Assembly: GCA_018696595.1 (NCBI GenBank)
Contig: JABHQW010000003.1
Location: 96,001-160,000, forward strand
Direction: 5' to 3'
Source of the DNA: Candidatus Woesearchaeota archaeon
GTDB lineage: Archaea > Nanobdellota > Nanobdellia > Woesearchaeales > GW2011-AR9
Length of the DNA stretch: 64,000 bases
The notes under the pieces were generated by a model. The model did not search any database, was not told where the DNA came from, and saw only the letters and a program-made list of their open reading frames with translations. Below, piece after piece: positions 2,239 to 16,413 of the stretch. Position numbers and translations under genes: made by a program. How positions within the stretch are numbered: the first letter of the stretch is position 1; each line of letters starts with the position of its first letter.

Positions 2239-2370
2239 ATTTTAAAAAGTATTTTAAGTTTATATAAATCTTCCGACCATCGTAAATAAGTGATGAGATA
2301 TGAATCAATGATATTTAGAAATTAAAAAAACATCAATAAGTTTTTATAAAAGTAACCAAAATAGAATAAA

Positions 2371-3789
2371 ATGTCATTAAATGTACTTGAAGATCTTAAA
2401 GAAGTTTACAAATTAATATATAAATTGCTAATTTTTCCTGAATCTGATTGGAAAACTAAGATTTATGCTTCTACAGCTATGGCTTATCTCATAAATCCTT
2501 ATGATGTTATTCCCGAAGCAGAAAAAGGAAGTGAAGGTTATATTGATGATTTATATCTTTGTTTGTTAGTTTTAAAAGATTTGTCATTGTATAGAAAGGA
2601 TCTTATTGAAATAGCCAATGATAATAGATTAGATATTCAAGAATTTGTTGAACAAAAATTGATTATTTGTAAAAACGAGTTATGCGAAAAAACTAAACTG
2701 ATTGAAAAAGTTTCTGGTTATGATTCTCTGGAAAGATTTGATATTAGAAATTCACAAGTAGATTCCAAAATATCATCACAACTTGAACAGAACTCAACAA
2801 TTCTAGGAACAATTGCATTCTTTTATGATGAACTTTTAAATGTTCAAAAAACCTATGAAGAAAGAAGAGGTATGAACAAAAGAGGACCCCCTATAAGAAA
2901 AGGTTTAGGAAGAAAGATGGATCTTCCTTATGCATACCACCACACATTCTTAGAATTAAAAGAATCTAATCTTTTTTTTGATCTTAATAGGGTCTGTTTA
3001 CAATTTAACAAAAGTGAAGAATTAAAGCTTAAGATTGATTCTAATAATTCAACAGAAGATTTATTTATGAATTACGAGGACAACTTAAAAAATTTTAATG
3101 AAGATGTAGAATATTATAAAATCATTAAATTTGCTCATCCATTATTTAAAACATTATGTAATATTTCTAATGACTCCGATTGTAGTTGGCAAATCAAACA
3201 TGAAATCAATTCAGCGTTGGCTTATTTTTCATTAGTTGATGATGTTATTGATGACACTATAGAGTCTGGTCTTGGTTATGTTGATGATATTTTTGTTGCA
3301 TCATTTGTTTTATTTGATATTGCTGAAAAAGATTTTCATCTTTTAAACAGAAATTTAGACTCTGGTTTAAGTATTACAACAATTAAAAACTTATTTGAAA
3401 GATCAAGTGAAATTATTGATAATGATTTGAGTCAAATAATTAATTTACTAGGTTTAAGGGGATTAATGTCATTTTTTGATTTAAATCAACCAAATAACAC
3501 TAATGTTTGTATTATTTCCAATCATGGTTCTAATTATAAAAAGATTTTGAATAGTTTAATTAAGCTATATTTTGTTCCAGAACTTAGTTTTGACAAGAAA
3601 TCAAACATATCAGAATACATTAAAGAAATTAATAAAAGTTTATCTGGAGATCAATTATTAAAATTAAATAAGTTTATTGAAATAGCAGAAAACAGTTGTT
3701 ATAATAAAAACATACAACAAGAATTTGAAAACAAAGAACATGAAGAGATCAGATTATTAATACTTAAACATAAAATATTATCAAGCTAA
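2371..3789 (+). CDS. protein with two DUF1232 (YkvA-like) domains
   Basis: Two copies of the AxAYxxxPxDxIPD...GYxDD motif: AMAYLINPYDVIPEAEKGSEGYIDD and ALAYFSLVDDVIDDTIESGLGYVDD; ends 1 nt before the helicase start. Confidence 0.75.
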   Translation: MSLNVLEDLKEVYKLIYKLLIFPESDWKTKIYASTAMAYLINPYDVIPEAEKGSEGYIDDLYLCLLVLKDLSLYRKDLIEIANDNRLDIQEFVEQKLIICKNELCEKTKLIEKVSGYDSLERFDIRNSQVDSKISSQLEQNSTILGTIAFFYDELLNVQKTYEERRGMNKRGPPIRKGLGRKMDLPYAYHHTFLELKESNLFFDLNRVCLQFNKSEELKLKIDSNNSTEDLFMNYEDNLKNFNEDVEYYKIIKFAHPLFKTLCNISNDSDCSWQIKHEINSALAYFSLVDDVIDDTIESGLGYVDDIFVASFVLFDIAEKDFHLLNRNLDSGLSITTIKNLFERSSEIIDNDLSQIINLLGLRGLMSFFDLNQPNNTNVCIISNHGSNYKKILNSLIKLYFVPELSFDKKSNISEYIKEINKSLSGDQLLKLNKFIEIAENSCYNKNIQQEFENKEHEEIRLLILKHKILSS

Positions 3790-3790
3790 A

Positions 3791-5917
3791 ATGGAAAACA
3801 AATCGTTTAAAGAAATAGATGAACAAATTAAAGACACTTACTATAATTCAGAAGACAATCCCATTAAAAATTTTATGATTCCTGTTCTAAAGTGTTCTAA
3901 AATATATCGCCGCGAAACATACAGTTTTAATGCAGCTATATTTTCTTTGATTAGTGATGCTTTAGTTGATGTGTTTGAAAATGATTGTAAAATCCAGTAT
4001 ATTGTTGGCATGGAAATTAACGAAAAACATGAATTAGCAATTGAAAAAGGACTAGAAGATGAAGTAGGTCTTATTGAAAAACATTTAATTAATGATTTTG
4101 GGGACATTGAAAAATTTGTTGAAAAATTAAATAGTAAATATGAAAAAGAAAAAATAGAGAATAGGTTAAGAATGCTTAGTCTGATGATCTCAAAAGGAAT
4201 TTTAGAGATTAAAGTAGGATTTAAATGTAAAAGGGGAAAACCATTAGACCCTCGTTGGGCAAAATTCCACCCCAAAGTTATGATTTTTACTGATTTTGAA
4301 GGAAACTCAATTGTTACAAATGGATCACCTAATGAGAGCGAAGGTGGTGGAGACCGTAATGAAGAAGCATTTGATGTATTCAAAAGTTGGGACATTGGAT
4401 CCAAAAAATGGTTTGATAGACATTGGGCAAAGTTTGATGAATTTTGGGATAATACTAAGGAAAACGTAAAGACTATTGAAGTAAGTAAATTAATTGAAAG
4501 TAATGTTCTTAGAAAATATAGAAGTAGATCCAAAACTAAAGGAGAAATGATCAATATTGAAAAAGATTTAAACAAGCTGTTGGAAATGGAAAAAAAGGTG
4601 GATCAAACTGAAGAAAATATCCCTAAAGAATCAGGAGAGATAGAATTACGACATTACCAAAATGAGATTATTGATAATTGGTTTAAAGAAGACTCTAAAG
4701 GAATTTATGCACTTTGTACAGGAGCAGGTAAAAGTATTACTGCTATTCGCACTATTAAAAGATTATTGAAAAATCATCCTAAAACCATTACAATTATTGT
4801 TGCACCATATATCCCCCTTTGTGAACAATGGATACAAGTTTTAAAAACTGAGAATATAACCCCATTAATGGCATATAAGTCAATGGAATTATGGTATAAA
4901 TCATTAAAACATAAATTACTTTCATTTCAAATGGGTGGAACTGATTCGATATTTATTATCACAACAAATAAAACATACTCTAGTGATGAATTTCAAAATT
5001 TATTGAATAATTATTGGAAAAATTGTTTTTTAATAATCGATGAGTGCCATCATTTTGCTAGTACAACATACAGATCAACATTAAATGAGAGAATACAATT
5101 TAGGCTAGGTCTTTCAGCAACCCCGGAAAATGAGATGGACAGAGAGGGAAACATGGTGTTATATCGTTTTTTTAAGAAAAATATACCTCCTGAATATTCT
5201 TTAAAAGATGCTATCATTGAAGGTTACTTAAACAGATATGATTATTATCCAATAATTAATGAACTTGATGATCAAGAAAATGAAAATTTTGAGGAAATAA
5301 CTTTAAGAATATTAGCTGCTAAAAAAGATGGTGACTTTAAAAAAGTTGAAACCATATCTAAAGAAAGAGATGTTCTAATAGATACTTCGAAAACAAAAAT
5401 CCCAAATCTTTCAAGACTATTAGATCAGATTGAAGATTTATCACATTCGTTAATTTATTGTTCTGGAACTAAACAATTAGAACAAGTTTCAAGACTATTA
5501 AAGGAAAAAGGAATAAATTTTGGAAAAATTACTTCTGATGAAACCGCAAAAGAAAGATATAATATGATCGATCAATTTAAAAAAGGATTTATTAAACTTC
5601 TTTTGAGCATAAGAATACTTGATGAAGGTATAGATATTCCAGCAATTAAAACTGCAATGATATTAAAAAGTTCAGCAAGATCTCGACAAGCAATTCAGAG
5701 AAGGGGAAGATGTTTAAGATTATTAAAAGATGAATTTGGAGAGATAATTGATAAAAATGCTAGAATTTACGACTTTGTCACTTTGCCAAGGTCAAAATTA
5801 GATGTGGTTAAAGAATCATATGGTCTTGAAATAAAACGAATAATGGAATTCGTAACTTTATCAAACAATTCAAAAGAAGCAGAAAAGATTATAAAAGATC
5901 ACTTCCCTTATGTTTAA
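3791..5917 (+). CDS. pbeA: PLD-nuclease-SF2 (DEAD/DEAH) helicase, PbeA-like / DNA phosphorothioation-associated restriction enzyme
   Basis: HKD-like FHPKVMIFTD...GSPNES; Walker A TGAGKS; DECHH; motif III LSAT; motif VI QRRGRCLR; adjacent to dnd genes. Confidence 0.75.
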   Translation: MENKSFKEIDEQIKDTYYNSEDNPIKNFMIPVLKCSKIYRRETYSFNAAIFSLISDALVDVFENDCKIQYIVGMEINEKHELAIEKGLEDEVGLIEKHLINDFGDIEKFVEKLNSKYEKEKIENRLRMLSLMISKGILEIKVGFKCKRGKPLDPRWAKFHPKVMIFTDFEGNSIVTNGSPNESEGGGDRNEEAFDVFKSWDIGSKKWFDRHWAKFDEFWDNTKENVKTIEVSKLIESNVLRKYRSRSKTKGEMINIEKDLNKLLEMEKKVDQTEENIPKESGEIELRHYQNEIIDNWFKEDSKGIYALCTGAGKSITAIRTIKRLLKNHPKTITIIVAPYIPLCEQWIQVLKTENITPLMAYKSMELWYKSLKHKLLSFQMGGTDSIFIITTNKTYSSDEFQNLLNNYWKNCFLIIDECHHFASTTYRSTLNERIQFRLGLSATPENEMDREGNMVLYRFFKKNIPPEYSLKDAIIEGYLNRYDYYPIINELDDQENENFEEITLRILAAKKDGDFKKVETISKERDVLIDTSKTKIPNLSRLLDQIEDLSHSLIYCSGTKQLEQVSRLLKEKGINFGKITSDETAKERYNMIDQFKKGFIKLLLSIRILDEGIDIPAIKTAMILKSSARSRQAIQRRGRCLRLLKDEFGEIIDKNARIYDFVTLPRSKLDVVKESYGLEIKRIMEFVTLSNNSKEAEKIIKDHFPYV

Positions 5918-5922
5918 ATAAA

Positions 5923-6093
5923 ATGAAAGAAATTAAAAACATATTAGAGAATATGAAATGTCCTGAGGAGAATCAGATTTTACTTATTGAAACACTTAAG
6001 AGTTGTAAATATCATAGATCTGATAAGAATAATAAAGAAATAATCTTACAAATATATTCTACACTTAATAAATTGATGAAAAATGAAAATTAA
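5923..6093 (+). CDS. unannotated 56-aa protein at the pbeB position (MKEIKNILENMKCPEENQILLIETLKSCKYHRSDKNNKEIILQIYSTLNKLMKNEN)
   Basis: Translated by hand: ATG at 5923, TAA at 6091-6093; fills the gap between helicase and ATPase and overlaps the ATPase start. Confidence 0.65.
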   Translation: MKEIKNILENMKCPEENQILLIETLKSCKYHRSDKNNKEIILQIYSTLNKLMKNEN

Positions 6094-8101
6094 AGAAATG
6101 AAATTGAAGAATTTCAAAGCATATCGTAATGAAGAACTAAAATTCAGTACAGATAAGGAAAAAAATGTCACATTAATTTATGGTGTTAATGGAGCGGGTA
6201 AAACTTCTTTTTTTCAGGCATTGAATTGGGGTTTATATGGGTATGATGTGATTGGTACAAACAACACAATCTCCTCAATGAAAACAATTGCAGGAAAATA
6301 TTTATTGGATGAATTATCTGAAGGAGAAACTGAAGAAGTAAAAATTGAAATTCAATTTGAAAACGATGGATATGATTATACATTAACAAGGATTGCACAT
6401 TTTATTAAAAAAAATAATGAGCTTTCTTACTTAATGAAAAATGATTTCCTGAGTTTGTACTATGTCTCTGATATGGGTAAACCAAGTATGATTAAAAATG
6501 ACTCATTGGATCAAGAACAAAAAATATCAAGAATCATAAACAACGTTCTTCCTTTCGGTTCTAGAGAGTACTTTTTATTTGATGGTGAAAATTTAGCTAA
6601 TTACTCAGAAGCCAATAAACACCAATGTCTCGAAATTAAAAATGCAATTAGACAAGTATTAGGGTTAGATGACTTTGATATTGCTATTAAAAATATAAAA
6701 GCGGTTAATGATCAATTAAGAAAAGATTTCGAGAAAAAAGAATGTTCTGAAAAGATAAATGACACCAATAATGTGATTGGAGATTACCAGGAAAGACAAA
6801 CAAAAATTAGCAAAGAAGTAATTTCTCAGAGATATTTATTAAAAGAAAAGAATACTGAATTTACAAAAAATGAAGATTTATTGAAATCTTTTCATCAAGA
6901 AATAGAAAAAATAGAAAAAAGAAGTGAAATTGAAAAAGAAATTGAATCAATTAAAATTACACTTTCCTTAAATTTAAAAGAATTAAGGTCTGTTTTGACT
7001 CAAGGTTATATGTGTTATTCAGAATCAATCCAAACAGAATGTTTTAATTTGCTAACATCATGGAGAAAACAAAATAAATTTCCAACTAAATATTATAATC
7101 TTGATTTTGTAAAAAATATTATCCAAAATAAAAAATGTTTTTTTTGGGATTTTGAAGAAAATAGTGAAGAACATAAATTCTTTTTAAAAGAAGAAGAAAA
7201 ATTACAAAATTGGGGACATAATATTCAAAATGATCTAACTGATTTTTATGGTAAAGTTTCTTCATTAAAAATAGGATCAAAAAGTTTAATTAAAGATATA
7301 AGTGAACAACATAAAGTATATGTACAAACTGAAACAAAATTTAGAGAACATATTCTTGCTCACGAGGAAATTAACAAAGAAATAAAATCCAAAATAACCG
7401 ATAAAGAAATTCAAGAATGTAATAATAAAAGAGAAATCATTCAAAATGAGATTCTTAAAGTTAGTACAAACATTAAATCACTTACTGAACAATCTATACT
7501 TTTTGAAGAAGAGATTAGAAAAGCAAATTCCCTCTTAAACTCTATGAAAAGTAAAACTGTAGAGGGAAAGAAAATTCAAGATAAAAAGAAATTAATAACT
7601 GAATCAATTTATTGGTTAAAACAATTATATGAACACTATTCTCAAATTAAACGACAAGAAGTTGAGAAACACATGCAAGACTTATTTAGAAATATTCTTT
7701 GGAAAAAACAACACTACCAGGATGCTAAACTAACCTCAGATTATAAATTAACATTACCTGACAAATGGGGAGATGCCGGAGAAGATCTGGTTTCAAAAGG
7801 AGAAGGCCAAGTATTAATATTAAGTTTTGTGGCAGCATTAGCAAAGTCTACAAATGATGAAGCACCATTTATTATTGATACTCCTTTTGCAAGAATTTCA
7901 ATAGAACCTACAATTAATATTGCAAAATTCTTACCAGAGCAAGTTTCACAATTAGTTCTTTTTGTTACTGATAAAGAATTAACTACCGAATCTGAAAGAT
8001 TATTTACTGAAAAAACCCAATATGTTTGGACAATAAAGTTTAATGAGGAAAATTCAGAAACAAATATTATAAATGGCAAACAAGTCAAAACAGAATATTA
8101 A
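6083..8101 (+). CDS. SMC/Rad50-like ABC ATPase, DndD paralogue (PbeC-like)
   Basis: Walker A GVNGAGKT, YFLFDGE, long coiled coil, signature VSKGE, Walker B/D-loop FIIDTPFARIS. Confidence 0.8.
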   Translation: MKIKEMKLKNFKAYRNEELKFSTDKEKNVTLIYGVNGAGKTSFFQALNWGLYGYDVIGTNNTISSMKTIAGKYLLDELSEGETEEVKIEIQFENDGYDYTLTRIAHFIKKNNELSYLMKNDFLSLYYVSDMGKPSMIKNDSLDQEQKISRIINNVLPFGSREYFLFDGENLANYSEANKHQCLEIKNAIRQVLGLDDFDIAIKNIKAVNDQLRKDFEKKECSEKINDTNNVIGDYQERQTKISKEVISQRYLLKEKNTEFTKNEDLLKSFHQEIEKIEKRSEIEKEIESIKITLSLNLKELRSVLTQGYMCYSESIQTECFNLLTSWRKQNKFPTKYYNLDFVKNIIQNKKCFFWDFEENSEEHKFFLKEEEKLQNWGHNIQNDLTDFYGKVSSLKIGSKSLIKDISEQHKVYVQTETKFREHILAHEEINKEIKSKITDKEIQECNNKREIIQNEILKVSTNIKSLTEQSILFEEEIRKANSLLNSMKSKTVEGKKIQDKKKLITESIYWLKQLYEHYSQIKRQEVEKHMQDLFRNILWKKQHYQDAKLTSDYKLTLPDKWGDAGEDLVSKGEGQVLILSFVAALAKSTNDEAPFIIDTPFARISIEPTINIAKFLPEQVSQLVLFVTDKELTTESERLFTEKTQYVWTIKFNEENSETNIINGKQVKTEY

Positions 8102-8108
8102 ATAGAAG

Positions 8109-8549
8109 ATGAATCAATCAAGAAACCCACCCATCCACATTAATGAAAAGTTTAATATGAGATATAGTCTTTACTCTAATCCACAACACAAAAGAAACAC
8201 TGATGAAAAGGAGTTATTATTTTTCTCTAGGATGGTTGATTTATTTATGTTAGCTACAATTCATGGCTTTAAAGAAGGATTAAGAATTCCCTTTGAAAAA
8301 CCAAGTGAAAAAACTGATATTTTCAAATGGAGCAATTTTAAAGACGAAGATTTGACAATTATTAAATCAATAGGATTATTAGAGCTTATTAGAATTGGAA
8401 ATGAGGATCCGAACATTATTAATGATAAATCAAGAATGGTTGAAATAATTCAAGAATATGCTAATGGGGGATTTCAAGATTTAATGGAAATATTAGAAGA
8501 GAACCCTGACTTTGAAGGAAATTTCATTTCATTAATACTAACAAAATAA
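8109..8549 (+). CDS. Dnd system-associated small protein (PbeD / dnd-associated protein 4-like; DndE-like)
   Basis: 146 aa; DLFMLATIHG and IIQEYANGGFQDL are typical of this family; position after the ATPase. Confidence 0.65.
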   Translation: MNQSRNPPIHINEKFNMRYSLYSNPQHKRNTDEKELLFFSRMVDLFMLATIHGFKEGLRIPFEKPSEKTDIFKWSNFKDEDLTIIKSIGLLELIRIGNEDPNIINDKSRMVEIIQEYANGGFQDLMEILEENPDFEGNFISLILTK

Positions 8550-8576
8550 TTTAGTAACTCAAATAAACCACTAATT

Positions 8577-8592
8577 GGATTACGTTTAATCC
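8577..8592. promoter_or_regulatory. palindrome GGATTA-CGTT-TAATCC, candidate operator upstream of dndB
   Basis: Perfect 6-bp inverted repeat with 4-nt spacer, about 45 bp upstream of the TATA-like box. Confidence 0.35.
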
Positions 8593-8638
8593 GTTCAAAA
8601 GGAAGTCTATTTTATTCACTTGGAAGTTAAACTGAAAG

Positions 8639-8646
8639 TTTATATA
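8639..8646 (+). promoter_or_regulatory. archaeal TATA box (TTTATATA) with purine-rich BRE-like GAAAG for dndB
   Basis: Lies about 24 nt upstream of the dndB ATG, consistent with a leaderless transcript. Confidence 0.55.
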
Positions 8647-8669
8647 TCATTTAATTCTTAGAACTTTTT

Positions 8670-9779
8670 ATGGTGATAAAAAAAGAGGTTAGTTCAAATG
8701 CTTTCTCATTTACTGCATTAAGAGGCATTCAGTCTGGAAGAGAATATTATGTTGCAATGTGTCCATTAAGATTAATTCCTAGAATATTCTTATTTAACGA
8801 AATGGAAATCCCCCCCCATATGAGGGCACAAAGAACTCTTAATAAAGCAAGAGTTCCTGAAATGGCTTCATATATGATTAAAAATAATGATTATATTTTT
8901 TCATCTATTACTGCATCTATAGATGGAGAGATTCTATTTGAACCGATTGAGGATACTGGTCATAAATCTAAAATGGGAACTCTGAGCGTTCCTATGAGTG
9001 CTAGATTTTTAATTAATGATGGGCAGCATAGAAGAGCAGCAATAGAAAAAGCTTTAGCAGAGAAGCCAGAATTAGGTTCTGAAACAATCTCTGTAGTGTT
9101 CTTCCTTGATGCTGGATTGAAACGTAGCCAACAAATGTTTGCAGATCTTAATAAAAATGCGGTAAAACCTACAACTTCATTAAATATTTTATATAATCAT
9201 AGAGATGAGTTTTCAAGATCCATTATTTCACAATTAAATAATATACCTATTTTTGGAAATCAGTTAACTGAATTAGAAAAAACATCTATTTCAAATAGAG
9301 CCAAAAAGGTTTTCACTCTAAATAGTATTTATCATTCAACAAAATCATTTTTAGGTAAAAAAGAAAAAACCCCAGTTATATCTAATGATGAAAAGAAATT
9401 GGTTTCTGAGTTTTGGAATGAAGTTCATAATAATATTTCTGAATGGCAAGATGTTGTTAATGATAAGATCACTCCTTATGGATTGAGACAAGATTATGTT
9501 CATGTTTCCGGTGTTGTTCTTCATGCTATAGGTAGAATGGGTCATAAACTAATAAAAGATTATCCCAATAATTGGAAAATAAAACTAAAAAATCTTCAAC
9601 AAATTGATTGGAAAAAATCAAATCCCATTTGGGAAGGAAGAGCCATGCAAAATGGAAGATTAAGTAAAGTAAATACCAATTTGATTTTAACAAGTAATTA
9701 TCTTAAACAGCAAATGGAAGTTCCATTAAGTAAAGCAGAGATTGAAATTGAAAAAATAATAACAGGCGGATCAAAATAG
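8670..9779 (+). CDS. dndB: DNA sulfur modification protein DndB (DGQHR domain regulator)
   Basis: AQRTLNKARVPEM, INDGQHRRAAI, SQQMFADLN motifs. Confidence 0.92.
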   Translation: MVIKKEVSSNAFSFTALRGIQSGREYYVAMCPLRLIPRIFLFNEMEIPPHMRAQRTLNKARVPEMASYMIKNNDYIFSSITASIDGEILFEPIEDTGHKSKMGTLSVPMSARFLINDGQHRRAAIEKALAEKPELGSETISVVFFLDAGLKRSQQMFADLNKNAVKPTTSLNILYNHRDEFSRSIISQLNNIPIFGNQLTELEKTSISNRAKKVFTLNSIYHSTKSFLGKKEKTPVISNDEKKLVSEFWNEVHNNISEWQDVVNDKITPYGLRQDYVHVSGVVLHAIGRMGHKLIKDYPNNWKIKLKNLQQIDWKKSNPIWEGRAMQNGRLSKVNTNLILTSNYLKQQMEVPLSKAEIEIEKIITGGSK

Positions 9780-11179
9780 TTAAAGAATCTATATTTAAAA
9801 GTAGAAAATTAAAAGACATTCACAAAGAGATACAAACGGTTTATTTAAGTGATGATAGACCTTGGGTTATTGGATTTAGTGGAGGAAAAGATTCTACAGT
9901 TATTTTACAACTAATTTGGTATGCATTATCCGAATTACCAAAAAATAAATTAAAAAAAACTATACATGTTATTTCTTCAAATACTTTAGTAGAATCACCT
10001 ATTTTAATTAATTATGTTGGAAAGATTCATAAGTTGATCAATAGCAAAGCAAAAGAGCAAGGGATTCCAATTACTGCCACACACATTTTTCCCAAAGTAG
10101 AAGACACTTTTTGGGTTAATTTAATTGGAAAAGGTTATCCTGCACCAACAAGAATGTTTAGATGGTGTACAGAAAGGTTAAAAATTAAACCCGCTGATGA
10201 GTTTATTTTTAATACAGTAAGTAAGTATGGTGAAGCAATCGTTGTTTTAGGAGTTCGTAAAGAGGAAAGTACTTCAAGAGAACAAAGTATGAATACTTAT
10301 AAAATTCAAGGTTCTTTGTTATCAAAGCATTCAAAATTCTCACAGGCGTATGTTTATACCCCCATTGAAGAATTTACTGTGGATGATGTTTGGTCATATT
10401 TATTACAAAAAAAGTCTCCTTGGGGAGCTAATAATAGGGAACTATTAACAATGTATTCTGATAAGAATAGTGGAGAATGTCCATTAGTAGTAGATAATAC
10501 TTCTCCTAGTTGTGGTGGGTCTAGATTTGGTTGTTGGACTTGTACATTGGTTAAAAAAGATAAATCAATGGATAATCTAATCTCTAGTGGTGAAAAATGG
10601 ATGCAACCTTTGTCTGATTTTAGAGTTAAACTATATGAAACAACAGATCCTGAAAAAAAGTATAAATTTAGAGATTTTAAGAGTAGAAGAGGTTTTGTAA
10701 GGTTAAAAAATGATGGAAGCGGAAAAATTGCTAGAGGCCCATACAAATTCTCTTATTGTAAGGAATTGTTATTAGAATTATTAAAAATTCAAATGAAATT
10801 TAATGAACAAGGGATTGATTTTCAGGTAATTAATGAAAATGAGATTCATGAAATTAGGAAAATTTGGCGTAATGAAAGAAATGATTGGGAAGACTCAATT
10901 CCAAAAATGTATGAATCAGTATTAGGGAAAAGCCTTAATTGGGTTCAAGATGATTTCGGGGAATTTTCGGTTTCTGAAAGAGAATTATTGAAAAGAATCT
11001 GTGAAAAAAATAATGTCTCAACAGATCTAATATTAGAATTATTAGATGTAGAAAAACAATTCCAAGGAATGACCCGTAGAGCAAATATTTATGCCAAACT
11101 AGGATCGACATTAAAAAAAGAATGGAGGTCTGAAGAAGAATTTTTAGATTCTTTAAAAAAGAAAAATGAAAATAAATGA
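9776..11179 (+). CDS. dndC: DndC (PAPS reductase-like phosphorothioation protein); N-terminus extends 86 codons upstream of the called ORF, probable ATA start
   Basis: In-frame upstream sequence encodes DDRPWVIGFSGGKDS and SNTLVESP; downstream GKGYPAP..FRWCTERLKI and SCGGSRFGCWTC; no ATG/GTG/TTG between the in-frame TGA (9749) and TTG 10034. Confidence 0.88.
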   Translation: MVKESIFKSRKLKDIHKEIQTVYLSDDRPWVIGFSGGKDSTVILQLIWYALSELPKNKLKKTIHVISSNTLVESPILINYVGKIHKLINSKAKEQGIPITATHIFPKVEDTFWVNLIGKGYPAPTRMFRWCTERLKIKPADEFIFNTVSKYGEAIVVLGVRKEESTSREQSMNTYKIQGSLLSKHSKFSQAYVYTPIEEFTVDDVWSYLLQKKSPWGANNRELLTMYSDKNSGECPLVVDNTSPSCGGSRFGCWTCTLVKKDKSMDNLISSGEKWMQPLSDFRVKLYETTDPEKKYKFRDFKSRRGFVRLKNDGSGKIARGPYKFSYCKELLLELLKIQMKFNEQGIDFQVINENEIHEIRKIWRNERNDWEDSIPKMYESVLGKSLNWVQDDFGEFSVSERELLKRICEKNNVSTDLILELLDVEKQFQGMTRRANIYAKLGSTLKKEWRSEEEFLDSLKKKNENK

Positions 11180-13130
11180 AGTTAAATTAAATAATTATGG
11201 CCTGTATCATGGCACTCAAACTTTTGATCTTAGAACTACTGGTTCTAAAAATATAATCCTAATTGGTGGAGAGAATGGGCATGGTAAAACAACTTTATTT
11301 GATGCCATAAAACTCGCACTATATGGAAAGAAGTCCGCAGATTTTAGTTTAACTAATCAAGAATATCAAGAATTATTATTCAGTAAAATTCATGACTCTG
11401 CTAGTGTTGAATCGGCAGATCATGCTGGAATAGAAGTGGAATTTGAACATTCAGTTCTAGGAGAAATTAATAAATATCGAATTAAGCGATTTTGGAATGT
11501 ACGTAACAATAAAATTATTGAAGATTTTGAAGTTTCCCAGAATGGAAAAACTCTGGATGATTTCTCTTTTGAACAATGGGAAGATTTTATTAATGACTTA
11601 ATTCCTCAAGGATTGGCAAAATTATTCTTTTTTGATGGAGAAAAAATACAAAATTTAGCAGAAGATAAAAATAATCAATATTTATCTGATGCATTTAAAA
11701 GTTTATTAGGTATAGATTTAATTGAAAAATTAAAAGCTGACCTTAGAATATATTTAATTCGGAATACAAACGGGAAAGAATCTTCTGACATTGAAAAAGA
11801 AGTAACTAAATTAAATAAAAATAAAATCATTTTATCAAAACAAATTGATGGTATAGACTCAAATATTGAGAAAAATGATTTATTTTTGAAAAAAAACATC
11901 AAACAAATAAAATATCTTGAGAATGCACTCTCTGTAAAAGGGGGGAATTTTGCTCGTGATCGTGATTCTTTGAAACAAAAATCAAACGAATTGGATGTTA
12001 AAATTAATTTTTGTGAAGAAAAAATACGTTCAATGTGTAATGAACAATTACCTTTTATTTTTTCTCCAAAATTAAATTTATCTCTTTTAACTAGATTAAA
12101 AGTTGAAAGAGAGTCAAAACACAACCAAATTGCTTTTGATAAGGTGATCTCTGCCATAAAAGAAATAAAAAATGAATTAGTTAGCAGTAAGAAAAATGAT
12201 AAATCAGTTTTGAATATTTTGGATAACAAAATTAAAAGCTTCAATATTGAAGGAGACCAAAATGAAGTTCACAAAATATCAGATAGTCACTTTTTTAGAC
12301 TTACAAATTTAATTGGAACAGATATTGATGAAACCAAAAAAGGATTTATTAATTTAGTTAAGGACCACGAACAATTAACTTATAAAAAAACAAAATTAGT
12401 AAAACAATTAGGAATTGTCCCTGATGAATTGGATCTAAAGCCTTACTTTGAAAAATTAGGTAAGTGTAATAAAAAATTAGGAGAATTTAATTCATTTAAA
12501 AAACAGTTGTTAGAAAAGAAAAAAACTTTTGATTTCAAAATAAATCAGTTAGAAAGAGACATTGATAAAAAAATTGATATGATCAGGACAATTAATAAGA
12601 AAGATGAAATTATCCAATCAATAAGCAAGGTAGAATCTGTTTTAACTGAATATCATGGTAAATTGCATGATTTTAAAATGAAAGAATTTTCTAAATATTT
12701 TCTTATGTGTTTTGATAGTATATCTAAGAAGAAGAACATTTTTTCAAAAGTAGAATTAGATCCTAAAACATTTAATGTTTATTTATGGAAATATAGTAAT
12801 AATAAGAGGATCTCAAAGAATCAACTTTCTACAGGAGAAAAACAATTATATGCTATTGCTGTTTTATGGACATTAATAAAAATATCTCAAAGACCTCTTC
12901 CTTTTATTATTGATACTCCCTTAGCCAGACTTGATGTTAAAAATAGGAATAATATTGTCAATAATTTTTTTCCCAATGCAAGTCATCAAATCATTATCCT
13001 CTCAACAGATACTGAAATTGATCAGAATTATCATGGTATTCTGAAAAATAAAATTTCAAGAGAGATGGTTTTAGATTTTAATGATGAGAAAACAAGAATA
13101 ATTCCTGGTTATTTTTGGGGTGAAAAATGA
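11166..13130 (+). CDS. dndD: DNA sulfur modification protein DndD (SMC-like ATPase)
   Basis: GENGHGKTT, LFFFDGEKI, LSTGEKQ, FIIDTPLARLD, LSTDTEID. Confidence 0.92.
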   Translation: MKINEVKLNNYGLYHGTQTFDLRTTGSKNIILIGGENGHGKTTLFDAIKLALYGKKSADFSLTNQEYQELLFSKIHDSASVESADHAGIEVEFEHSVLGEINKYRIKRFWNVRNNKIIEDFEVSQNGKTLDDFSFEQWEDFINDLIPQGLAKLFFFDGEKIQNLAEDKNNQYLSDAFKSLLGIDLIEKLKADLRIYLIRNTNGKESSDIEKEVTKLNKNKIILSKQIDGIDSNIEKNDLFLKKNIKQIKYLENALSVKGGNFARDRDSLKQKSNELDVKINFCEEKIRSMCNEQLPFIFSPKLNLSLLTRLKVERESKHNQIAFDKVISAIKEIKNELVSSKKNDKSVLNILDNKIKSFNIEGDQNEVHKISDSHFFRLTNLIGTDIDETKKGFINLVKDHEQLTYKKTKLVKQLGIVPDELDLKPYFEKLGKCNKKLGEFNSFKKQLLEKKKTFDFKINQLERDIDKKIDMIRTINKKDEIIQSISKVESVLTEYHGKLHDFKMKEFSKYFLMCFDSISKKKNIFSKVELDPKTFNVYLWKYSNNKRISKNQLSTGEKQLYAIAVLWTLIKISQRPLPFIIDTPLARLDVKNRNNIVNNFFPNASHQIIILSTDTEIDQNYHGILKNKISREMVLDFNDEKTRIIPGYFWGEK

Positions 13131-13492
13131 ATGACTTTACTAGAATGAGAATATCTAATGATGCTACTTTCAAATTACGCTCTTTAAAACAAAGAACAGG
13201 ATTAACTCCAAATTTATTGTGTAGGGTTGGTTTATGTTTCTCATTGGAAAATGACCTACAAAATGATCTGGTTCCCTTAGATGAAGATGGGCAAGAGTTT
13301 AATCGTCAAACTTTATTGGGTGAAAATGACTTATTTTTTATTTCACTCATTAAGGAAAAATGTGCTTTAATGGGATTAGATTCTGAAAAAGATTTTATGC
13401 AACAATTTAAGTATCATTTGAATAATGGGATTTTAGTCTTACATGGAAGGGTTAAAAGTTTAACTGATTTAACAAACCTTATTGAAAAATGA
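13127..13492 (+). CDS. dndE: DNA sulfur modification protein DndE
   Basis: LKQRTGLTPNLLCRVGLCFSL...GQEFNRQTLLGE; 4-nt overlap with dndD. Confidence 0.9.
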   Translation: MNDFTRMRISNDATFKLRSLKQRTGLTPNLLCRVGLCFSLENDLQNDLVPLDEDGQEFNRQTLLGENDLFFISLIKEKCALMGLDSEKDFMQQFKYHLNNGILVLHGRVKSLTDLTNLIEK

Positions 13493-14607
13493 AAATAATC
13501 TATTGTGATAATAACTCCACTACTCAAGTAGATAAGAAAGTACTAAATGAAATGTTGCCTTACTTTTGTGAGAAATTTGGTAATGCTTCTAGTATTGACC
13601 ATGTTTATGGAAATGAATTATTACCTGAGATCAAGAAAGCAAGAGAGTCTATTGCTAAAGTAATTAATTGTGATTTTGATGAAATTATATTCACTAGTGG
13701 TGCTACTGAATCTAATAATTTGGCAATTATGGGCACAGTTGAGCAGTTAAAAGAAAAAGGAAATCATATTGTTACTTCTTCAATTGAACATAAATCAATT
13801 TTGAATGTTTGTCAAGAATTAGAAAAAAGAGGTTTTCAAGTTACTTATGTTTCTCCTGACAAGAGCGGAGTGTTGAAATCTGAAGATATTAAGTCTGCAA
13901 TTACTGATCAAACTATATTGATTTCGATTATGGGTGCCAATAATGAAATTGGCACTATTCAACCTATCAAAGAAATTGGCATTATTGCTAAAGAAAAAGG
14001 AATTGTATTTCATACTGATTCTGCACAAGCTTTTGGAAAAATTTCTTTAGATGTAAATAATATTGATTTAATGTCAATATCATCGCATAAAGTGTATGGT
14101 CCTAAAGGAATTGGTGCTTTATTTATTAGAAGAGGAGTAAAAATAAAACCTATCATTTTTGGTGGTGGCCAAGAAGGAAAGATACGACCAGGCACCTATA
14201 ATGTTCCAAGCATAGTTGGTTTTGGAAAAGCAAGTGAATTAGTTTCATTAAAGAATCAAGAATTAATTAAAAATTTAACTATGAATTTATATGATCGTTT
14301 GTCTGAACATGTCCAACTAAATGGAGATCTAAATAATCGTATTCCTGGAAATCTAAATTTGTTTGTTGAGGATGTTGATTCAAAAGCTTTAATTAATGAA
14401 GTAAAGACAAGTCTTGCAATTTCTGCAGGTTCCGCTTGTAATAGTGATGAAGTAACTCCTTCTCATGTTATTCTAGCTTTAGGATATGATGATAATAGAG
14501 CATATAGTAGTATTAGAATTGGATTAGGAAGATTTACAACGGAAGAAGAAATAAATAAAGTGGTAAATGTTTTAATTCCAGCAATTAAGAAACTGAGAAA
14601 TTTATAA
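13489..14607 (+). CDS. dndA: cysteine desulfurase DndA/IscS
   Basis: FTSGATESNN, HTDSAQ, PLP-lysine SSHKVYGPKG, catalytic SAGSAC; 4-nt overlap with dndE. Confidence 0.9.
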   Translation: MKIIYCDNNSTTQVDKKVLNEMLPYFCEKFGNASSIDHVYGNELLPEIKKARESIAKVINCDFDEIIFTSGATESNNLAIMGTVEQLKEKGNHIVTSSIEHKSILNVCQELEKRGFQVTYVSPDKSGVLKSEDIKSAITDQTILISIMGANNEIGTIQPIKEIGIIAKEKGIVFHTDSAQAFGKISLDVNNIDLMSISSHKVYGPKGIGALFIRRGVKIKPIIFGGGQEGKIRPGTYNVPSIVGFGKASELVSLKNQELIKNLTMNLYDRLSEHVQLNGDLNNRIPGNLNLFVEDVDSKALINEVKTSLAISAGSACNSDEVTPSHVILALGYDDNRAYSSIRIGLGRFTTEEEINKVVNVLIPAIKKLRNL

Positions 14608-14623
14608 ATATAAATTATAAAAT

Positions 14624-14998
14624 TTAATAATCATTCCCCAAAATCTTGTGTTTAAGCAATAATAATCTGATCTCATGATTCTCCTGATTCTCAAGTTTTC
14701 TTTTAATATTCTCACTTAAGTTTTTCCCGCTTTTATCAATTACTTCTTTAATAATACTAAACACTTTCCGTGATCTATCAATTAAGGGGAATATTGATTC
14801 TACTTCTTCATGTGTCATCCTTCCTAGACGGCATATGGAATACTCTCCATTACCTTGTTTAAATTCTTTAATTATTTGTAACTTTGGATTCCCTTTGTTA
14901 TAAGAATATATTACTATTCTAAATTTAGTTTTTCCTATGTTCACAGATTCTGAGAATAATTCAAGATCTAAATTAACATCATATCCAAATTTAGTCAT
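14624..14998 (-). CDS. PC4-like (putative ssDNA-binding) domain with C-terminal extension; probable start 14998 (MTKFGYDV)
   Basis: LDLELFSESV...YSYNKGNPKLQI...RLGRMTHEEV resembles small archaeal PC4-like proteins; ATGA overlap with the DUF2779 gene stop. Confidence 0.55.
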   Translation of the reverse strand: MTKFGYDVNLDLELFSESVNIGKTKFRIVIYSYNKGNPKLQIIKEFKQGNGEYSICRLGRMTHEEVESIFPLIDRSRKVFSIIKEVIDKSGKNLSENIKRKLENQENHEIRLLLLKHKILGNDY

Positions 14999-16413
14999 TT
15001 CACCAACTCCCTCAACGCTTCTACAATCCAGATCATACCTTCGGTATCTAACTCGCAATACTTAAGCAGATCATCACGGACATCTTCACCGCCGTTGAGC
15101 ATCTTTACAAATAACAAAGAAGCAGTATCGCCATCAGAGATTTCTAAATGAGAATAATCTTTACCAACAATCGCAGGTAAGACTTTCTTTAAAGAAGCTG
15201 AACCTTTCTGTTTAAGATTGTAATAATGAAATTGTCTGAAAGGAACAATTAAATCAACCACTCTACTAACTACGCCCTCAACCCAATCTTTATATTCAGG
15301 AAATACTAAACCTAACTCTCGTAACCGACCAATCTCAAAAGATTGATTATATGTTACAATAGTTCCAGAAGAACCTAAAACTTCTTTCAAAGCTTTAAGA
15401 AATTCTAAGCGACAATCTAATTTAGAACCTAAAAACTCATAATGCTTATCATTAACATGTAAAGACCATTGAAACGGAATTTGTTGGTATGGTTTAGTTC
15501 CATCTAAAATAGGAACAGCTGACCGAAAAGTTTCGAAATCTAAATAGTATAGTTCACCTTTCAAAGTATTAAGAAACTTTTCAATCTCTTCTTTATTTAC
15601 ATGAACTTTTCCATTAATCTCACATTGATGTTGAATACCTTGTTTATCAGATAATTTAAACTCAGAAGGAATGTCTTTCAATTCTAAAATTCCATCTTCA
15701 TATAACTGAAAACTTTTCTTCCCACCACGAGATAAATCAAAAACACTTGAAGAAGGTAAAAATCCCCAACATCCATCTTCTAAAGGACAATCGTAAGGGT
15801 CAGCACAATCTGACGAAATCTTTACAGTAGGACAAACATTAGATCTCATTACTTTAAGCATTTCATCAATCTTTTCTTTAATTCCTGTAACTTCACTAAC
15901 TAAAGAAGTAATATCTTCTTTAACAAAGAACTTTACAGGGTCTATCTCTCCATCTTTAACAAACTTATTATTAACATGCATTAAAAAACAATTCTTAATT
16001 TTCAAACCACATAAAGAATAAACATATTTCTGAAATGCAACATCTTGAATATTAATTTTTTTAACAGAAGCGCCAGATTTAACTTCAATAATGTCCCAAC
16101 CATCTTCATTAGGAACAAGAACGTCTGCCCGAGAATAAACTTCTCCATCTGAATAGGCTGCTTCGAATAAAGGTTTGCCTTCAGACAATAGTTTTCTTGA
16201 ATTAATCAAACTTCCTTTAAAATCAGCTTCAGGGATATCAATGCCTTCTGGAAACATTTTCTTTGCTAACTGACCAACGATATGACCTTGATCAAACTTA
16301 TGTTTAGTAGCTAAATCATGTTCAGGAATTTTATCTTTCTCATGCAAATCTATCCAGAAGTACTTTAAACATTGTAGTCCGACTAAGTATCTTGATTTTG
16401 TTAATAATGCCAT
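14995..16413 (-). CDS. DUF2779-domain protein (N-terminal RecB/PD-(D/E)XK-like nuclease, C-terminal RNase H-like domain)
   Basis: LTKSRYLVGLQC, RADVL...IIEVKS..., DVAFQKYV, YYLDFET, YNQSFE, YCELDT. Confidence 0.8.
   Translation of the reverse strand: MALLTKSRYLVGLQCLKYFWIDLHEKDKIPEHDLATKHKFDQGHIVGQLAKKMFPEGIDIPEADFKGSLINSRKLLSEGKPLFEAAYSDGEVYSRADVLVPNEDGWDIIEVKSGASVKKINIQDVAFQKYVYSLCGLKIKNCFLMHVNNKFVKDGEIDPVKFFVKEDITSLVSEVTGIKEKIDEMLKVMRSNVCPTVKISSDCADPYDCPLEDGCWGFLPSSSVFDLSRGGKKSFQLYEDGILELKDIPSEFKLSDKQGIQHQCEINGKVHVNKEEIEKFLNTLKGELYYLDFETFRSAVPILDGTKPYQQIPFQWSLHVNDKHYEFLGSKLDCRLEFLKALKEVLGSSGTIVTYNQSFEIGRLRELGLVFPEYKDWVEGVVSRVVDLIVPFRQFHYYNLKQKGSASLKKVLPAIVGKDYSHLEISDGDTASLLFVKMLNGGEDVRDDLLKYCELDTEGMIWIVEALRELVK

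What the first reader, a model, noticed from the sequence alone, without database searches (positions are those of the whole stretch)
2371..14607. Complete phosphorothioation system (dndBCDEA) with an expanded Pbe-like effector operon in a DPANN-like archaeon
Seen: two tightly coupled operons, DUF1232x2 - PLD-helicase - 56 aa - SMC ATPase - small protein, followed by dndB-C-D-E-A with 4-14 nt overlaps. Established: dndCDEA-pbeABCD is a PT-dependent antiviral system described in haloarchaea (Haloterrigena jeotgali), distinct from DndFGH. Inference: this is an intact variant with its own DndB regulator, its own cysteine desulfurase and an extra leading gene, in a reduced-genome lineage where PT defence is little studied.
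Basis: partly seen in the sequence, partly recalled or inferred. Interest (0 to 1): 0.72.

Follow-up and report, generated by a model that had tools for sequence, protein, structure and literature searches.

The report
Sulfur-marking DNA defence island, extra gene
A tiny marine DPANN (Woesearchaeota-type) archaeon carries an intact, horizontally acquired copy of the published Dnd-Pbe system, which marks its own DNA with sulfur and blocks unmarked viruses; what is new is a rare extra lead gene that also travels with the anti-virus module in several other archaea.

Summary
Ten co-oriented, tightly packed genes at 2371-14607 form two units, DUF1232x2-pbeABCD and dndBCDEA, and all catalytic motifs checked are intact. 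PbeA and PbeC match the PADLOC Pbe profiles over their full length (E 1e-167 and 7e-76). The host is an archaeon of 1.19 Mb whose LeuRS is closest to Woesearchaeota/Nanoarchaeota.

The system itself is already known (Xiong 2019; re-read by Aravind's group in 2024 as the CxC-ABC/DndE system). Four points differ:
- A 472-aa soluble tandem-DUF1232 protein sits 1 nt before pbeA. The same adjacency (-10 to +3 nt) recurs in eight other archaeal loci but on none of 38 pbeA-bearing plasmids.
- PbeC has lost the CxC zinc hook that its relatives keep.
- dndC has no ATG/GTG/TTG start. The likely start is an ATA overlapping the dndB stop, and three independent metagenomes show the same sequence.
- A small convergent gene after dndA ends in the same EIRLLxLKHKIL tail as the DUF1232 protein.

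dndC was found in only 2 of 401 genomes of the phylum, and the island's G+C is 3 SD below the genome mean. The scan has reported Dnd-Pbe islands on other DNA before. No function was tested.

The parts
2341..2351 (+). TATA-like box (TTTTTATAAAA) about 20-30 nt before the first ATG. Putative archaeal promoter of the DUF1232x2-pbeABCD unit.
   Evidence: Read directly from the sequence. Inference only; no transcript data.
2371..3789 (+). Tandem-DUF1232 protein (472 aa): all-helical, soluble, with a conserved C-terminal EIRLLILKHKIL helix. It is the lead gene and ends 1 nt before pbeA.
   Evidence: Pfam DUF1232, 36.4 bits. The full-length family is small: 17 proteins among 5.8 billion and about 15 clusters at E<=1e-30 among 1.8 billion representatives. 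AF2 model has pLDDT 80.5 and pTM 0.80. No PDB or viral fold match. No TM segment; Kyte-Doolittle maximum 1.46. It lies directly upstream of pbeA in L003, L006, L008, L009 and L010, and as single or split forms in L024, L026 and L029.
3791..5917 (+). PbeA: one HKD/PLD nuclease motif (H160-x-K162) fused to an SF2 helicase (Walker A GAGKS at 311, DECH at 417).
   Evidence: PADLOC PbeA E 1.4e-167, residues 12-699 against profile positions 6-670 of 672. Pfam ResIII, Helicase_C and PLDc_2. NCBIfam TIGR04095 dnd_restrict_1 E 2e-106. Motifs.
5923..6093 (+). PbeB-like small protein (56 aa).
   Evidence: Identified by position between pbeA and pbeC. 32-34% identical to the 56-aa ORFs at the same position in L003 and L010. 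No profile hit.
6083..8101 (+). PbeC: DndD-like ABC ATPase with a coiled coil. The Zn hook is degenerate (KKCFFWD in place of CxC).
   Evidence: PADLOC PbeC E 7e-76 over the full length. DndD models score lower. NCBIfam DndD gives 166.9 bits against a cut-off of 245.85. Walker A at residue 34 and FIIDTP at 599. Hook alignment.
8109..8549 (+). PbeD-like protein (146 aa).
   Evidence: NCBIfam TIGR04062 dnd_assoc_4 E 1e-9, below its cut-off. PADLOC PbeD E 0.006. 60% identical to the L010 gene at the same position, and aligns with 7 positional orthologues sharing a YAxGG motif.
8640..8647 (+). TTTATATA box 23-30 nt before the dndB ATG. Putative promoter of dndBCDEA. A palindrome GGATTA..TAATCC lies at about 8578-8593.
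   Evidence: Read from the sequence. Inference only.
8670..9779 (+). DndB (DGQHR motif at residue 117).
   Evidence: Pfam DndB E 5e-131. PADLOC DndB E 3e-155. Motif.
9776..11179 (+). DndC, with PP-loop SGGKDS and a Cys cluster (C235, C246, C253, C256). It has no canonical start. The likely start is ATA at 9776, which overlaps the dndB TAG as ATAG.
   Evidence: NCBIfam TIGR03183 542.8 bits against a cut-off of 290. Frame and start analysis. The junction is identical in runs X7, X8 and X10.
11166..13130 (+). DndD ABC ATPase.
   Evidence: NCBIfam TIGR03185 495.5 bits against a cut-off of 245.85. PADLOC DndD E 1e-176.
13127..13492 (+). DndE.
   Evidence: Pfam DndE E 9e-26. PADLOC DndE E 6e-39.
13489..14607 (+). 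DndA cysteine desulfurase (PLP lysine in SSHK at residue 201; catalytic Cys317 in SAGSAC).
   Evidence: Pfam Aminotran_5 E 2e-77. PADLOC DndA E 2e-148. Motifs.
14624..14998 (-). Convergent 124-aa gene, ATGA-coupled to the DUF2779 gene at 14995-16413. A common ~80-aa domain (PC4-like, as a lead only) carries an extension ending in ...EIRLLLLKHKILGNDY, the same tail as the DUF1232 protein. Possible accessory; membership in the system is unproven.
   Evidence: BLASTP of the tails: 16/28 identical and 25/28 positive. The motif occurs only twice in the 1.19-Mb genome. The N-terminal domain, without the tail, is found in 96 of 301 genomes of the order. PC4 lead from the Atlas, score 0.88.
3709..3779 (.). 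Left arm of the longest inverted repeat in the region. The partner arm is 14640-14710 (71 nt, 72% complementary). The two arms bracket pbeA..dndA and encode the two shared tails.
   Evidence: Within the 12 conserved codons there are 4 synonymous changes and 1 conservative change, read from the alignment.

Best explanation
**What it is.** This is a horizontally acquired, sequence-intact DNA phosphorothioation (PT) defence island of the published Dnd-Pbe type.

**How the modification half works (inferred from family knowledge).**
- DndA takes sulfur from cysteine.
- DndC, a PP-loop ATP pyrophosphatase with an Fe-S cluster, acts with the DndD ATPase and DndE to put sulfur into the DNA backbone at a short consensus.
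- DndB limits expression.

**How the anti-virus half works.** It is PbeA (HKD nuclease plus SF2 translocase), PbeB (small protein), PbeC (DndD-like ABC ATPase) and PbeD. It acts on DNA lacking the PT mark and halts viral replication. This was shown for the Haloterrigena system, not here.

**What is specific to this variant.**
- A soluble tandem-DUF1232 protein is translated immediately before PbeA. It is most likely a fifth, accessory or regulatory subunit of a sub-clade of archaeal Pbe modules.
- The PbeC hook has lost its zinc ligands.
- dndC probably initiates at a weak AUA codon coupled to dndB termination, which would keep DndC low.

**Shown versus inferred.** Shown: gene content, motifs, conserved adjacency, rarity in the phylum, low G+C and population-level sequence identity. 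Inferred: PT modification, antiviral activity, the role of the DUF1232 protein, and the start codon.
For: - **Family assignments.** All nine known components hit their families.
- **Motifs.** Catalytic motifs are present.
- **Operon structure.** Gaps and overlaps fit two translationally coupled units. TATA-like boxes precede 2371 and 8670.
- **Published function and domains.** PMC6459918 and PMC10853773.
- **DUF1232 gene next to pbeA.** It abuts pbeA at -10 to +3 nt in the window, L003 (Methanofastidiosum), L006 (Thermoplasmatales), L008, L009, L010, L024, L026 and L029. L010 carries the same ten genes in another arrangement.
- **Horizontal origin.**
  - Island G+C is 27.8% against 32.3 +/- 1.4%, in the lowest 0.55% of 12-kb windows.
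  - PbeA is 50-52% identical to the Methanofastidiosum and L010 copies but only 28-34% identical to same-phylum copies.
  - dndC is in 2 of 401 and pbeA in 8 of 401 genomes of the phylum.
- **Maintenance.** Contigs from independent marine runs are identical or nearly so across the island.
- **dndC start.**
  - Homologues start with Met one codon after the aligned ATA.
  - L009 also lacks a canonical start and instead has GGAGG, then 7 nt, then ATC.
Against: - **No direct evidence.** No functional, transcript or modification data exist for this locus, and no RNA run holding it was listed.
- **The DUF1232x2 family is not exclusive to Pbe.** In two Methanosarcinales lineages it sits between secDF and a Lon-like gene with no pbe nearby. 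Three of six same-phylum pbe loci lack it. All 38 pbeA plasmids lack a detectable homologue.
- **PbeD's relation to DndE was not reproduced.** hhalign probability was 0.4, from shallow profiles.
- **Two features could mean decay rather than tuning:** the missing canonical dndC start and the lost Zn hook.
Confidence: 0.8

Rival explanations
1. The tandem-DUF1232 gene is not a Pbe component. It is an independent gene, with a housekeeping or other role, that often happens to lie at the edge where pbe cassettes insert.
For: - Stand-alone copies occur in a housekeeping context in Methanosarcinales: secDF, Lon-like, RIO kinase, thymidylate kinase.
- In the close relative L007/L008, about 90% nucleotide identity runs through orf98 and the DUF1232 gene. 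It then decays inside pbeA and is lost after window position ~4598, so the lead gene and the rest of pbe have different histories.
- It is absent from haloarchaeal and bacterial pbe operons.
Against: - The same orientation and a -10 to +3 nt junction with pbeA recur in nine loci from at least four archaeal orders with unrelated flanks.
- Single-copy, split and fused forms all keep that position.
- It is the only DUF1232 gene in this genome.
- In L008 the high identity continues into the HKD domain of pbeA, so the breakpoint is not at the gene border.
Confidence: 0.15
2. The island is a decaying or silenced relic. dndC cannot be translated because it has no start codon, and PbeC cannot dimerise because it has no Zn hook. 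On this reading no PT is made and Pbe is inert.
For: - No ATG/GTG/TTG precedes the PP-loop of dndC.
- The CxC motif is absent although six homologues keep it.
- Xiong et al. report that more than half of pbeAC pairs are solitary.
Against: - All ten frames are open and all catalytic motifs are intact.
- The sequence is invariant across independent metagenomes from 2012-2020.
- L010 shares the hook-less CFFW apex while otherwise diverged (44% identity), so the hook-less form is conserved.
- L009 independently has a non-canonical dndC start behind a strong GGAGG.
- ATA is an accepted table-11 initiator, and here it aligns one codon from the homologues' Met.
Confidence: 0.1
3. The Pbe half does not read PT as 'self'. 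It is an abortive-infection or suicide module whose HKD nuclease is released when a virus removes an inhibitor (PbeB and/or the DUF1232 protein), as Aravind and colleagues proposed as an alternative. This overlaps with the best explanation rather than excluding it.
For: - PMC10853773 argues this from the HKD nuclease and the small disordered protein.
- pbe occurs without dnd in 6 of 7 other pbeA-positive genomes of this phylum.
- The DUF1232 gene co-inherits with the HKD part of pbeA in L008.
Against: - In the only experimental system, protection needed PT, PT-modified virus escaped, and no DNA cleavage was seen (PMC6459918).
- Here pbe is joined to a complete dnd set.
Confidence: 0.2

Closest known systems
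DndCDEA-PbeABCD of Haloterrigena jeotgali A29 (Xiong et al. 2019, PMC6459918)
   Same: The pbe gene order is A-B-C-D with the same domain content: HKD plus SF2 helicase, a ~60-aa protein, a DndD-like ATPase and a ~150-aa protein. It is adjacent to a PT-modification operon that includes its own dndA.
   Different: Here a tandem-DUF1232 gene leads the pbe unit, dndB is present, pbe precedes dnd, PbeC lacks the CxC hook, dndC has a non-canonical start, and the host is a DPANN archaeon. Haloarchaeal plasmid operons checked have no lead gene.
CxC ABC-ATPase / DndE-anchored conflict systems (Aravind group; PMC10853773)
   Same: This is the same four-gene core re-annotated. PbeA is an HKD endoDNase plus SF2 helicase, PbeB a fast-evolving small protein, PbeC a sister of DndD, and PbeD a DndE cognate. 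Mix-and-match with DndBCDE modules is described. Here the dnd half is closest to G231 (L026: DndC 62%, DndB 61%), while the pbe half is closest to L010 and L003.
   Different: The defining CxC zinc hook is absent here and in L010. No DUF1232 or YkvA partner is mentioned in the paper or in its held supplement.
DndABCDE-DndFGH of Salmonella / E. coli B7A
   Same: The same five modification genes, including DndB and DndA.
   Different: No DndG or DndH family match was found in this genome, which is 97% complete. The controls did not ring either, so this negative is weak. The restriction partner here is Pbe.
YkvA / DUF1232 family (PF06803)
   Same: The first repeat passes the Pfam cut-off. The Atlas structural neighbour is a 142-aa YkvA cluster with TM 0.83 normalised by the shorter chain.
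   Different: This protein is a tandem duplication of an extended ~200-aa module, with no predicted membrane helix, a conserved C-terminal tail, and operonic linkage to pbeA.

Membership tests
DndABCDE phosphorothioate modification system | DndC: PAPS-reductase-like PP-loop (SGGxDS) and a Cys cluster for the Fe-S centre | tested here: met
   SGGKDS at residue 35 and C235/C246/C253/C256. TIGR03183 scores 542.8 bits against a cut-off of 290. This requires a start upstream of 10034.
DndABCDE phosphorothioate modification system | DndD ABC ATPase and DndE encoded together | tested here: met
   TIGR03185 scores 495.5 bits against a cut-off of 245.85. Pfam DndE E 9e-26. The two genes overlap by 4 nt.
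DndABCDE phosphorothioate modification system | Dedicated cysteine desulfurase DndA with PLP lysine and catalytic cysteine | tested here: met
   PADLOC DndA E 2e-148. SSHK at residue 201 and SAGSAC at 317. A second class-V aminotransferase lies at 62471-63730.
DndABCDE phosphorothioate modification system | DndB with DGQHR motif | tested here: met
   Pfam DndB E 5e-131. NDGQHR at residue 117.
DndABCDE phosphorothioate modification system | PT dinucleotides actually present in genomic DNA | not testable with these tools
   Needs LC-MS/MS, iodine cleavage or SMRT kinetics.
PbeABCD (CxC-ABC / DndE-anchored system) | PbeA: HKD/PLD nuclease fused to an SF2 helicase | tested here: met
   PADLOC PbeA E 1.4e-167 over the full length. 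H160xK162, GAGKS and DECH motifs. Pfam PLDc_2 gives only 21.6 bits against a cut-off of 27.
PbeABCD (CxC-ABC / DndE-anchored system) | Small fast-evolving protein between A and C (PbeB) | tested here: met
   A 56-aa ORF at 5923-6093, 32-34% identical to the 56-aa ORFs at the same position in L003 and L010. No profile hit.
PbeABCD (CxC-ABC / DndE-anchored system) | PbeC: DndD-sister ABC ATPase | tested here: met
   PADLOC PbeC scores 254 bits against 153 bits for DndD models. It falls below the NCBIfam DndD cut-off.
PbeABCD (CxC-ABC / DndE-anchored system) | [quoted passage not shown] | tested here: not met
   The window and L010 read KKCFFWD / MKCFFWK at the column where L006 and L024-L029 have CxC or CxxC.
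PbeABCD (CxC-ABC / DndE-anchored system) | PbeD is a DndE cognate | tested here: inconclusive
   TIGR04062 E 1e-9, below its cut-off. PADLOC PbeD E 0.006. hhalign of 8 PbeD against 5 DndE sequences gives probability 0.4.
PbeABCD (CxC-ABC / DndE-anchored system) | PT-dependent block of virus replication | not testable with these tools
   Shown only for H. jeotgali genes in Natrinema (PMC6459918).
DndFGH restriction module | DndG- or DndH-type proteins in the genome | tested here: inconclusive
   TIGR03237 and TIGR03238 gave no match in G000, but no control genome rang either.
YkvA / DUF1232 membrane proteins | DUF1232 motif | tested here: met
   PF06803 scores 36.4 bits against a cut-off of 23 at residues 30-65. 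The second copy is shown by internal similarity.
YkvA / DUF1232 membrane proteins | Membrane-embedded helices | tested here: not met
   The highest 19-residue Kyte-Doolittle mean is 1.46, and that segment contains two Asp residues. This is a crude test.

The most novel reading that the evidence does not exclude
The tandem-DUF1232 protein is an undescribed fifth subunit of an archaeal Pbe sub-clade that gates the HKD nuclease of PbeA. Its conserved C-terminal EIRLLxLKHKIL helix would be a docking peptide. In this genome a PC4-like single-strand-DNA-binding protein encoded at the other end of the island has acquired the same peptide. The complex could then be recruited to, or released by, replication intermediates of invading DNA.
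Probability: 0.15. Interest if true: 0.7.

Novelty: new variant of a known kind. Interest (0 to 1): 0.45.

Why it matters
**Rarity in the host lineage.** PT-based defence has been studied in bacteria and haloarchaea. Here it sits, complete, in a 1.19-Mb DPANN genome, in a phylum where dndC was found in only 2 of 401 species genomes searched. A cell with very little coding space keeps about 12 kb (1% of its genome) for this system, unchanged across samples taken years apart.

**An open question becomes testable.** The mechanism of Pbe is unresolved: Xiong et al. saw no DNA cleavage, whereas Aravind and colleagues argue for nuclease action. A conserved extra partner, a hook-less PbeC and a shared C-terminal peptide give concrete things to test.

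**Practical note.** The non-AUG dndC start, seen twice independently, means gene callers will truncate or miss DndC.

Tried and rejected
**Tools and searches that gave nothing**
Contexts came from the search for related loci, the genome search and the fetch from genomes instead.
- The AF2 model of the DUF1232 protein had no informative fold match. Foldseek against PDB gave no hit at E<=0.001. VIA wide search gave a best Z of 6.4, which is helical-bundle noise. The viral library gave no hit.
- The Atlas gave only DUF1232 clusters.
- Paper searches for DUF1232, YkvA and PF06803 found nothing linking the domain to Dnd, Pbe or defence.
- No RNA holder was listed among the sequencing runs.
- PADLOC gave no hit for orf98, the 124-aa protein or the Methanosarcinales Lon-like neighbour.

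**Ideas tested and dropped**
- I asked whether the upstream HNH gene is a sulfur-binding (SBD) PT reader. It is not: its N-terminal domain is EVE/ASCH-like, like VcaM4I.
- hhalign of PbeD against DndE gave probability 0.4 from shallow alignments, which is inconclusive.
- I tried to define the island borders by synteny. Family-level relatives share only the DUF2779 gene, and Hel308 in one case, so no empty site was found.
- A -1 frameshift giving a DndB-DndC fusion at the A6 run (9751-9756) was considered. The heptamer is not a classical X XXY YYZ site, and L009 shows the same anomaly without an upstream overlapping gene, so I rate it below AUA initiation.
- The short joints and loose ends have sides of 20-30 nt and come from unrelated contigs. 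I did not treat them as rearrangements.
Full report
**1. Observation**

The window has ten co-oriented ORFs between 2371 and 14607. Profile searches name nine of them.

| Coordinates | Product | Key evidence |
|---|---|---|
| 3791-5917 | PbeA | PADLOC E 1.4e-167 end to end; Pfam ResIII, Helicase_C, weak PLDc_2; NCBIfam dnd_restrict_1 E 2e-106 |
| 5923-6093 | 56-aa protein | no profile hit |
| 6083-8101 | PbeC | PADLOC PbeC 254 bits vs DndD models 153 bits; below the NCBIfam DndD cut-off |
| 8109-8549 | PbeD-like | TIGR04062 E 1e-9; PADLOC E 0.006 |
| 8670-9779 | DndB | Pfam E 5e-131 |
| (9776)-11179 | DndC | see section 2 |
| 11166-13130 | DndD | TIGR03185 495 bits, over its cut-off |
| 13127-13492 | DndE | Pfam E 9e-26 |
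| 13489-14607 | DndA | PADLOC E 2e-148 |

The first gene, 2371-3789, carries Pfam DUF1232 at residues 30-65 and a second copy of the same motif near residue 290.

The gaps are +1, +5, -11 and +7 nt, then 120 nt, then -4, -14, -4 and -4 nt. That gives two translationally coupled units. TATA-like boxes lie about 25 nt before the ATGs at 2371 and 8670 (inference).

The catalytic motifs are all present:
- PbeA: HxK, GAGKS and DECH.
- PbeC and DndD: Walker A and Walker B.
- DndC: SGGKDS and a four-Cys cluster.
- DndB: DGQHR.
- DndA: SSHK and SAGSAC.

**2. The dndC start**

With ATG/GTG/TTG as starts, the dndC ORF begins at 10034, after the PP-loop. The frame is open from 9752.

Three homologues (L010, L026, L006) start with ATG 25-33 residues before the PP-loop. 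The L026 Met aligns one codon after an ATA at 9776, and that ATA overlaps the dndB stop as ATAG. A fourth homologue, L009, also lacks a canonical start. It has GGAGG, then 7 nt, then ATC.

Contigs of three independent seawater runs (X7, X8, X10) cover 9257-10135 or more with zero differences. This is therefore not an assembly error. I read it as weak AUA initiation coupled to dndB termination (inferred). A silent gene is the alternative.

**3. Host**

The genome is 1.19 Mb in 8 contigs and 97% complete. Its rRNAs are archaeal. LeuRS from the window is 53-60% identical to proteins named Woesearchaeota or Nanoarchaeota, with one named Micrarchaeota. All same-family genomes are 0.7-1.5 Mb. 'DPANN-like' is supported.

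**4. How common, and where from**

- In 400 other high-quality genomes of the phylum, pbeA was found in 7 and dndC in 1, which is G231.
- The window's PbeA is 50-52% identical to copies from Methanofastidiosum (L003) and a metagenome contig (L010), but only 28-34% identical to the same-phylum copies.
- The dnd half is closest to G231: DndC 62%, DndB 61%. The two halves therefore have different nearest relatives. This fits the weak DndCD/PbeAC correlation reported by Xiong et al. and the 'mix and match' described by Aravind's group.
- Island G+C is 27.8% against a genome mean of 32.3% (SD 1.4% for 12-kb windows), in the lowest 0.55%.
- The stretch occurs in marine and seawater metagenomes of many studies from 2012-2020, almost without variation.

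**5. The lead gene**

*Family size and structure.* The full-length tandem family is tiny: 17 proteins in the 5.8-billion set, and about 15 clusters at E<=1e-30 among 1.8 billion representatives. About 300 weaker hits cover only one repeat unit. The AF2 model is confident (pLDDT 80.5, pTM 0.80) and all-helical. It has no informative match in PDB or the viral library. No membrane helix is predicted.

*Loci with the gene next to pbeA.* The gene abuts pbeA on the same strand in:
- L003 (Methanofastidiosum),
- L006 (Thermoplasmatales),
- L008, L009 and L010 (metagenomes),
- three same-order DPANN genomes, in shorter or split forms: L024 (314 aa), L026 (296 aa) and L029 (282 + 238 aa).

The junctions range from -10 to +3 nt. 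L010 holds all ten genes with dnd convergent. L009 has DUF1232x2-pbeABCD-dndCDE in line.

*Loci without it.*
- Two Methanosarcinales lineages have the gene between secDF and a Lon-like gene, with no pbe nearby.
- Three of six same-phylum pbe loci lack it.
- None of the 38 plasmids with pbeA has a detectable homologue.
- The Haloprofundus and Pseudanabaena operons start with pbeA.

*Sampling caveat.* The loci found with the DUF1232 query are a biased sample. The unbiased figures are 3 of 6 in the phylum and 0 of 38 plasmids.

*Mosaic relative.* In the close relative L007/L008, about 90% nucleotide identity runs from orf98 through the DUF1232 gene. It decays within the HKD part of pbeA and ends near window position 4598.

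*Literature.* I found no paper linking DUF1232 or YkvA to Dnd, Pbe or defence.

**6. PbeC hook**

Six homologues have CxC or CxxC at the coiled-coil apex. The window and L010 have KKCFFWD / MKCFFWK there. The defining feature of the 'CxC' clade is therefore lost, although homology to that clade is clear.

**7. Shared tail**

- The DUF1232 protein ends ...EHEEIRLLILKHKILSS.
- A convergent 124-aa gene at 14624-14998, ATGA-coupled to the DUF2779 gene, ends ...ENHEIRLLLLKHKILGNDY. The two tails are 16/28 identical and 25/28 positive.
- The motif occurs only at these two places in the whole genome.
- The two coding stretches form the longest inverted repeat of the region (71 nt, 72%), bracketing pbeA..dndA.
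- Within the 12 core codons there are four synonymous changes and one conservative change. This points to selection on the peptide.
- The tail is conserved across the DUF1232x2 family, including, in degenerate form, the stand-alone Methanosarcinales copies.
- The N-terminal ~80 residues of the 124-aa protein belong to a small family present in 96 of 301 genomes of the order, always without the tail. That count includes the unpublished genomes G502, G475 and G243. The Atlas suggests a PC4-like domain, score 0.88, as a lead only.
- No second tail-bearing gene was seen in the other loci.

**8. Neighbours**

- 848-1855 (-) is an EVE/ASCH-like reader fused to HNH. Foldseek's top hit is VcaM4I (E 3e-10), followed by TagI. 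It is a type IV modification-dependent nuclease, not a sulfur-binding one.
- DUF2779 (14995-16413) has homologues in family relatives that lack dnd and pbe, and a weak Cas4-like signal.
- L024 and L026 carry a PD-(D/E)XK nuclease gene directly upstream of their DUF1232 gene.

**9. Verdict**

This is a real, sequence-intact Dnd-Pbe island of a published kind. It is new for this host lineage and carries four variant features. The conserved DUF1232 partner is the most interesting of them. Function, PT modification and the partner's role remain untested.

Noticed in passing
window 848-1855 (-): A 335-aa EVE/ASCH-like reader fused to an HNH nuclease. Its fold is closest to the 5mC/5hmC-dependent enzymes VcaM4I and TagI. 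The family is widespread in bacteria and archaea at 40-68% identity. It is a type IV restriction gene sitting just outside the PT island.
   Followed up: yes
window 14624-14998 (-) and 3709-3779 / 14640-14710: A small convergent gene carries the same C-terminal EIRLLxLKHKIL tail as the DUF1232 protein. The two coding stretches form a 71-nt inverted repeat bracketing pbeA..dndA. The motif occurs only at these two places in the genome.
   Followed up: partly
window 10794: The window reads T (ATG, Met340 of DndC counted from the ATA). Contigs of runs X1, X7 and X8 all read A (AAG, Lys). This is a minor variant or a consensus error in the window.
   Followed up: partly
L024 12266-13270 (-); L026 7341-8513 (+): In two same-order DPANN genomes a PD-(D/E)XK (Cas4-like) nuclease gene lies directly upstream of the DUF1232-pbeA pair. 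This suggests a still larger operon variant.
   Followed up: partly
L004 / L005 (Methanosarcinales), about 9500-13100: Stand-alone tandem-DUF1232 genes sit between secDF and a convergent 614-aa protein that has only a Lon protease C-terminal domain. The function of this pairing is unknown.
   Followed up: partly
L031 (Haloprofundus pMHR1-1) 8857-15125: A haloarchaeal plasmid carries pbeABCD followed by a DNA methyltransferase instead of dnd genes. This is an example of the methylase-paired Pbe form mentioned in the literature.
   Followed up: no
window 8578-8593: Palindrome GGATTACGTTTAATCC in the 120-nt spacer before dndB. It could be a DndB operator or the end of the pbe transcript.
   Followed up: no
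window 62471-63730 (+): A second class-V aminotransferase (Aminotran_5, E 4e-106), probably the housekeeping cysteine desulfurase. DndA is therefore an extra, dedicated copy.
   Followed up: no
window 16477-18189 (-): A RecQ helicase with HRDC and RecQ Zn-binding domains scores very high on PADLOC DpdF models (E 1e-189). It is probably an ordinary RecQ, which warns against reading DpdF hits as defence genes.
   Followed up: no
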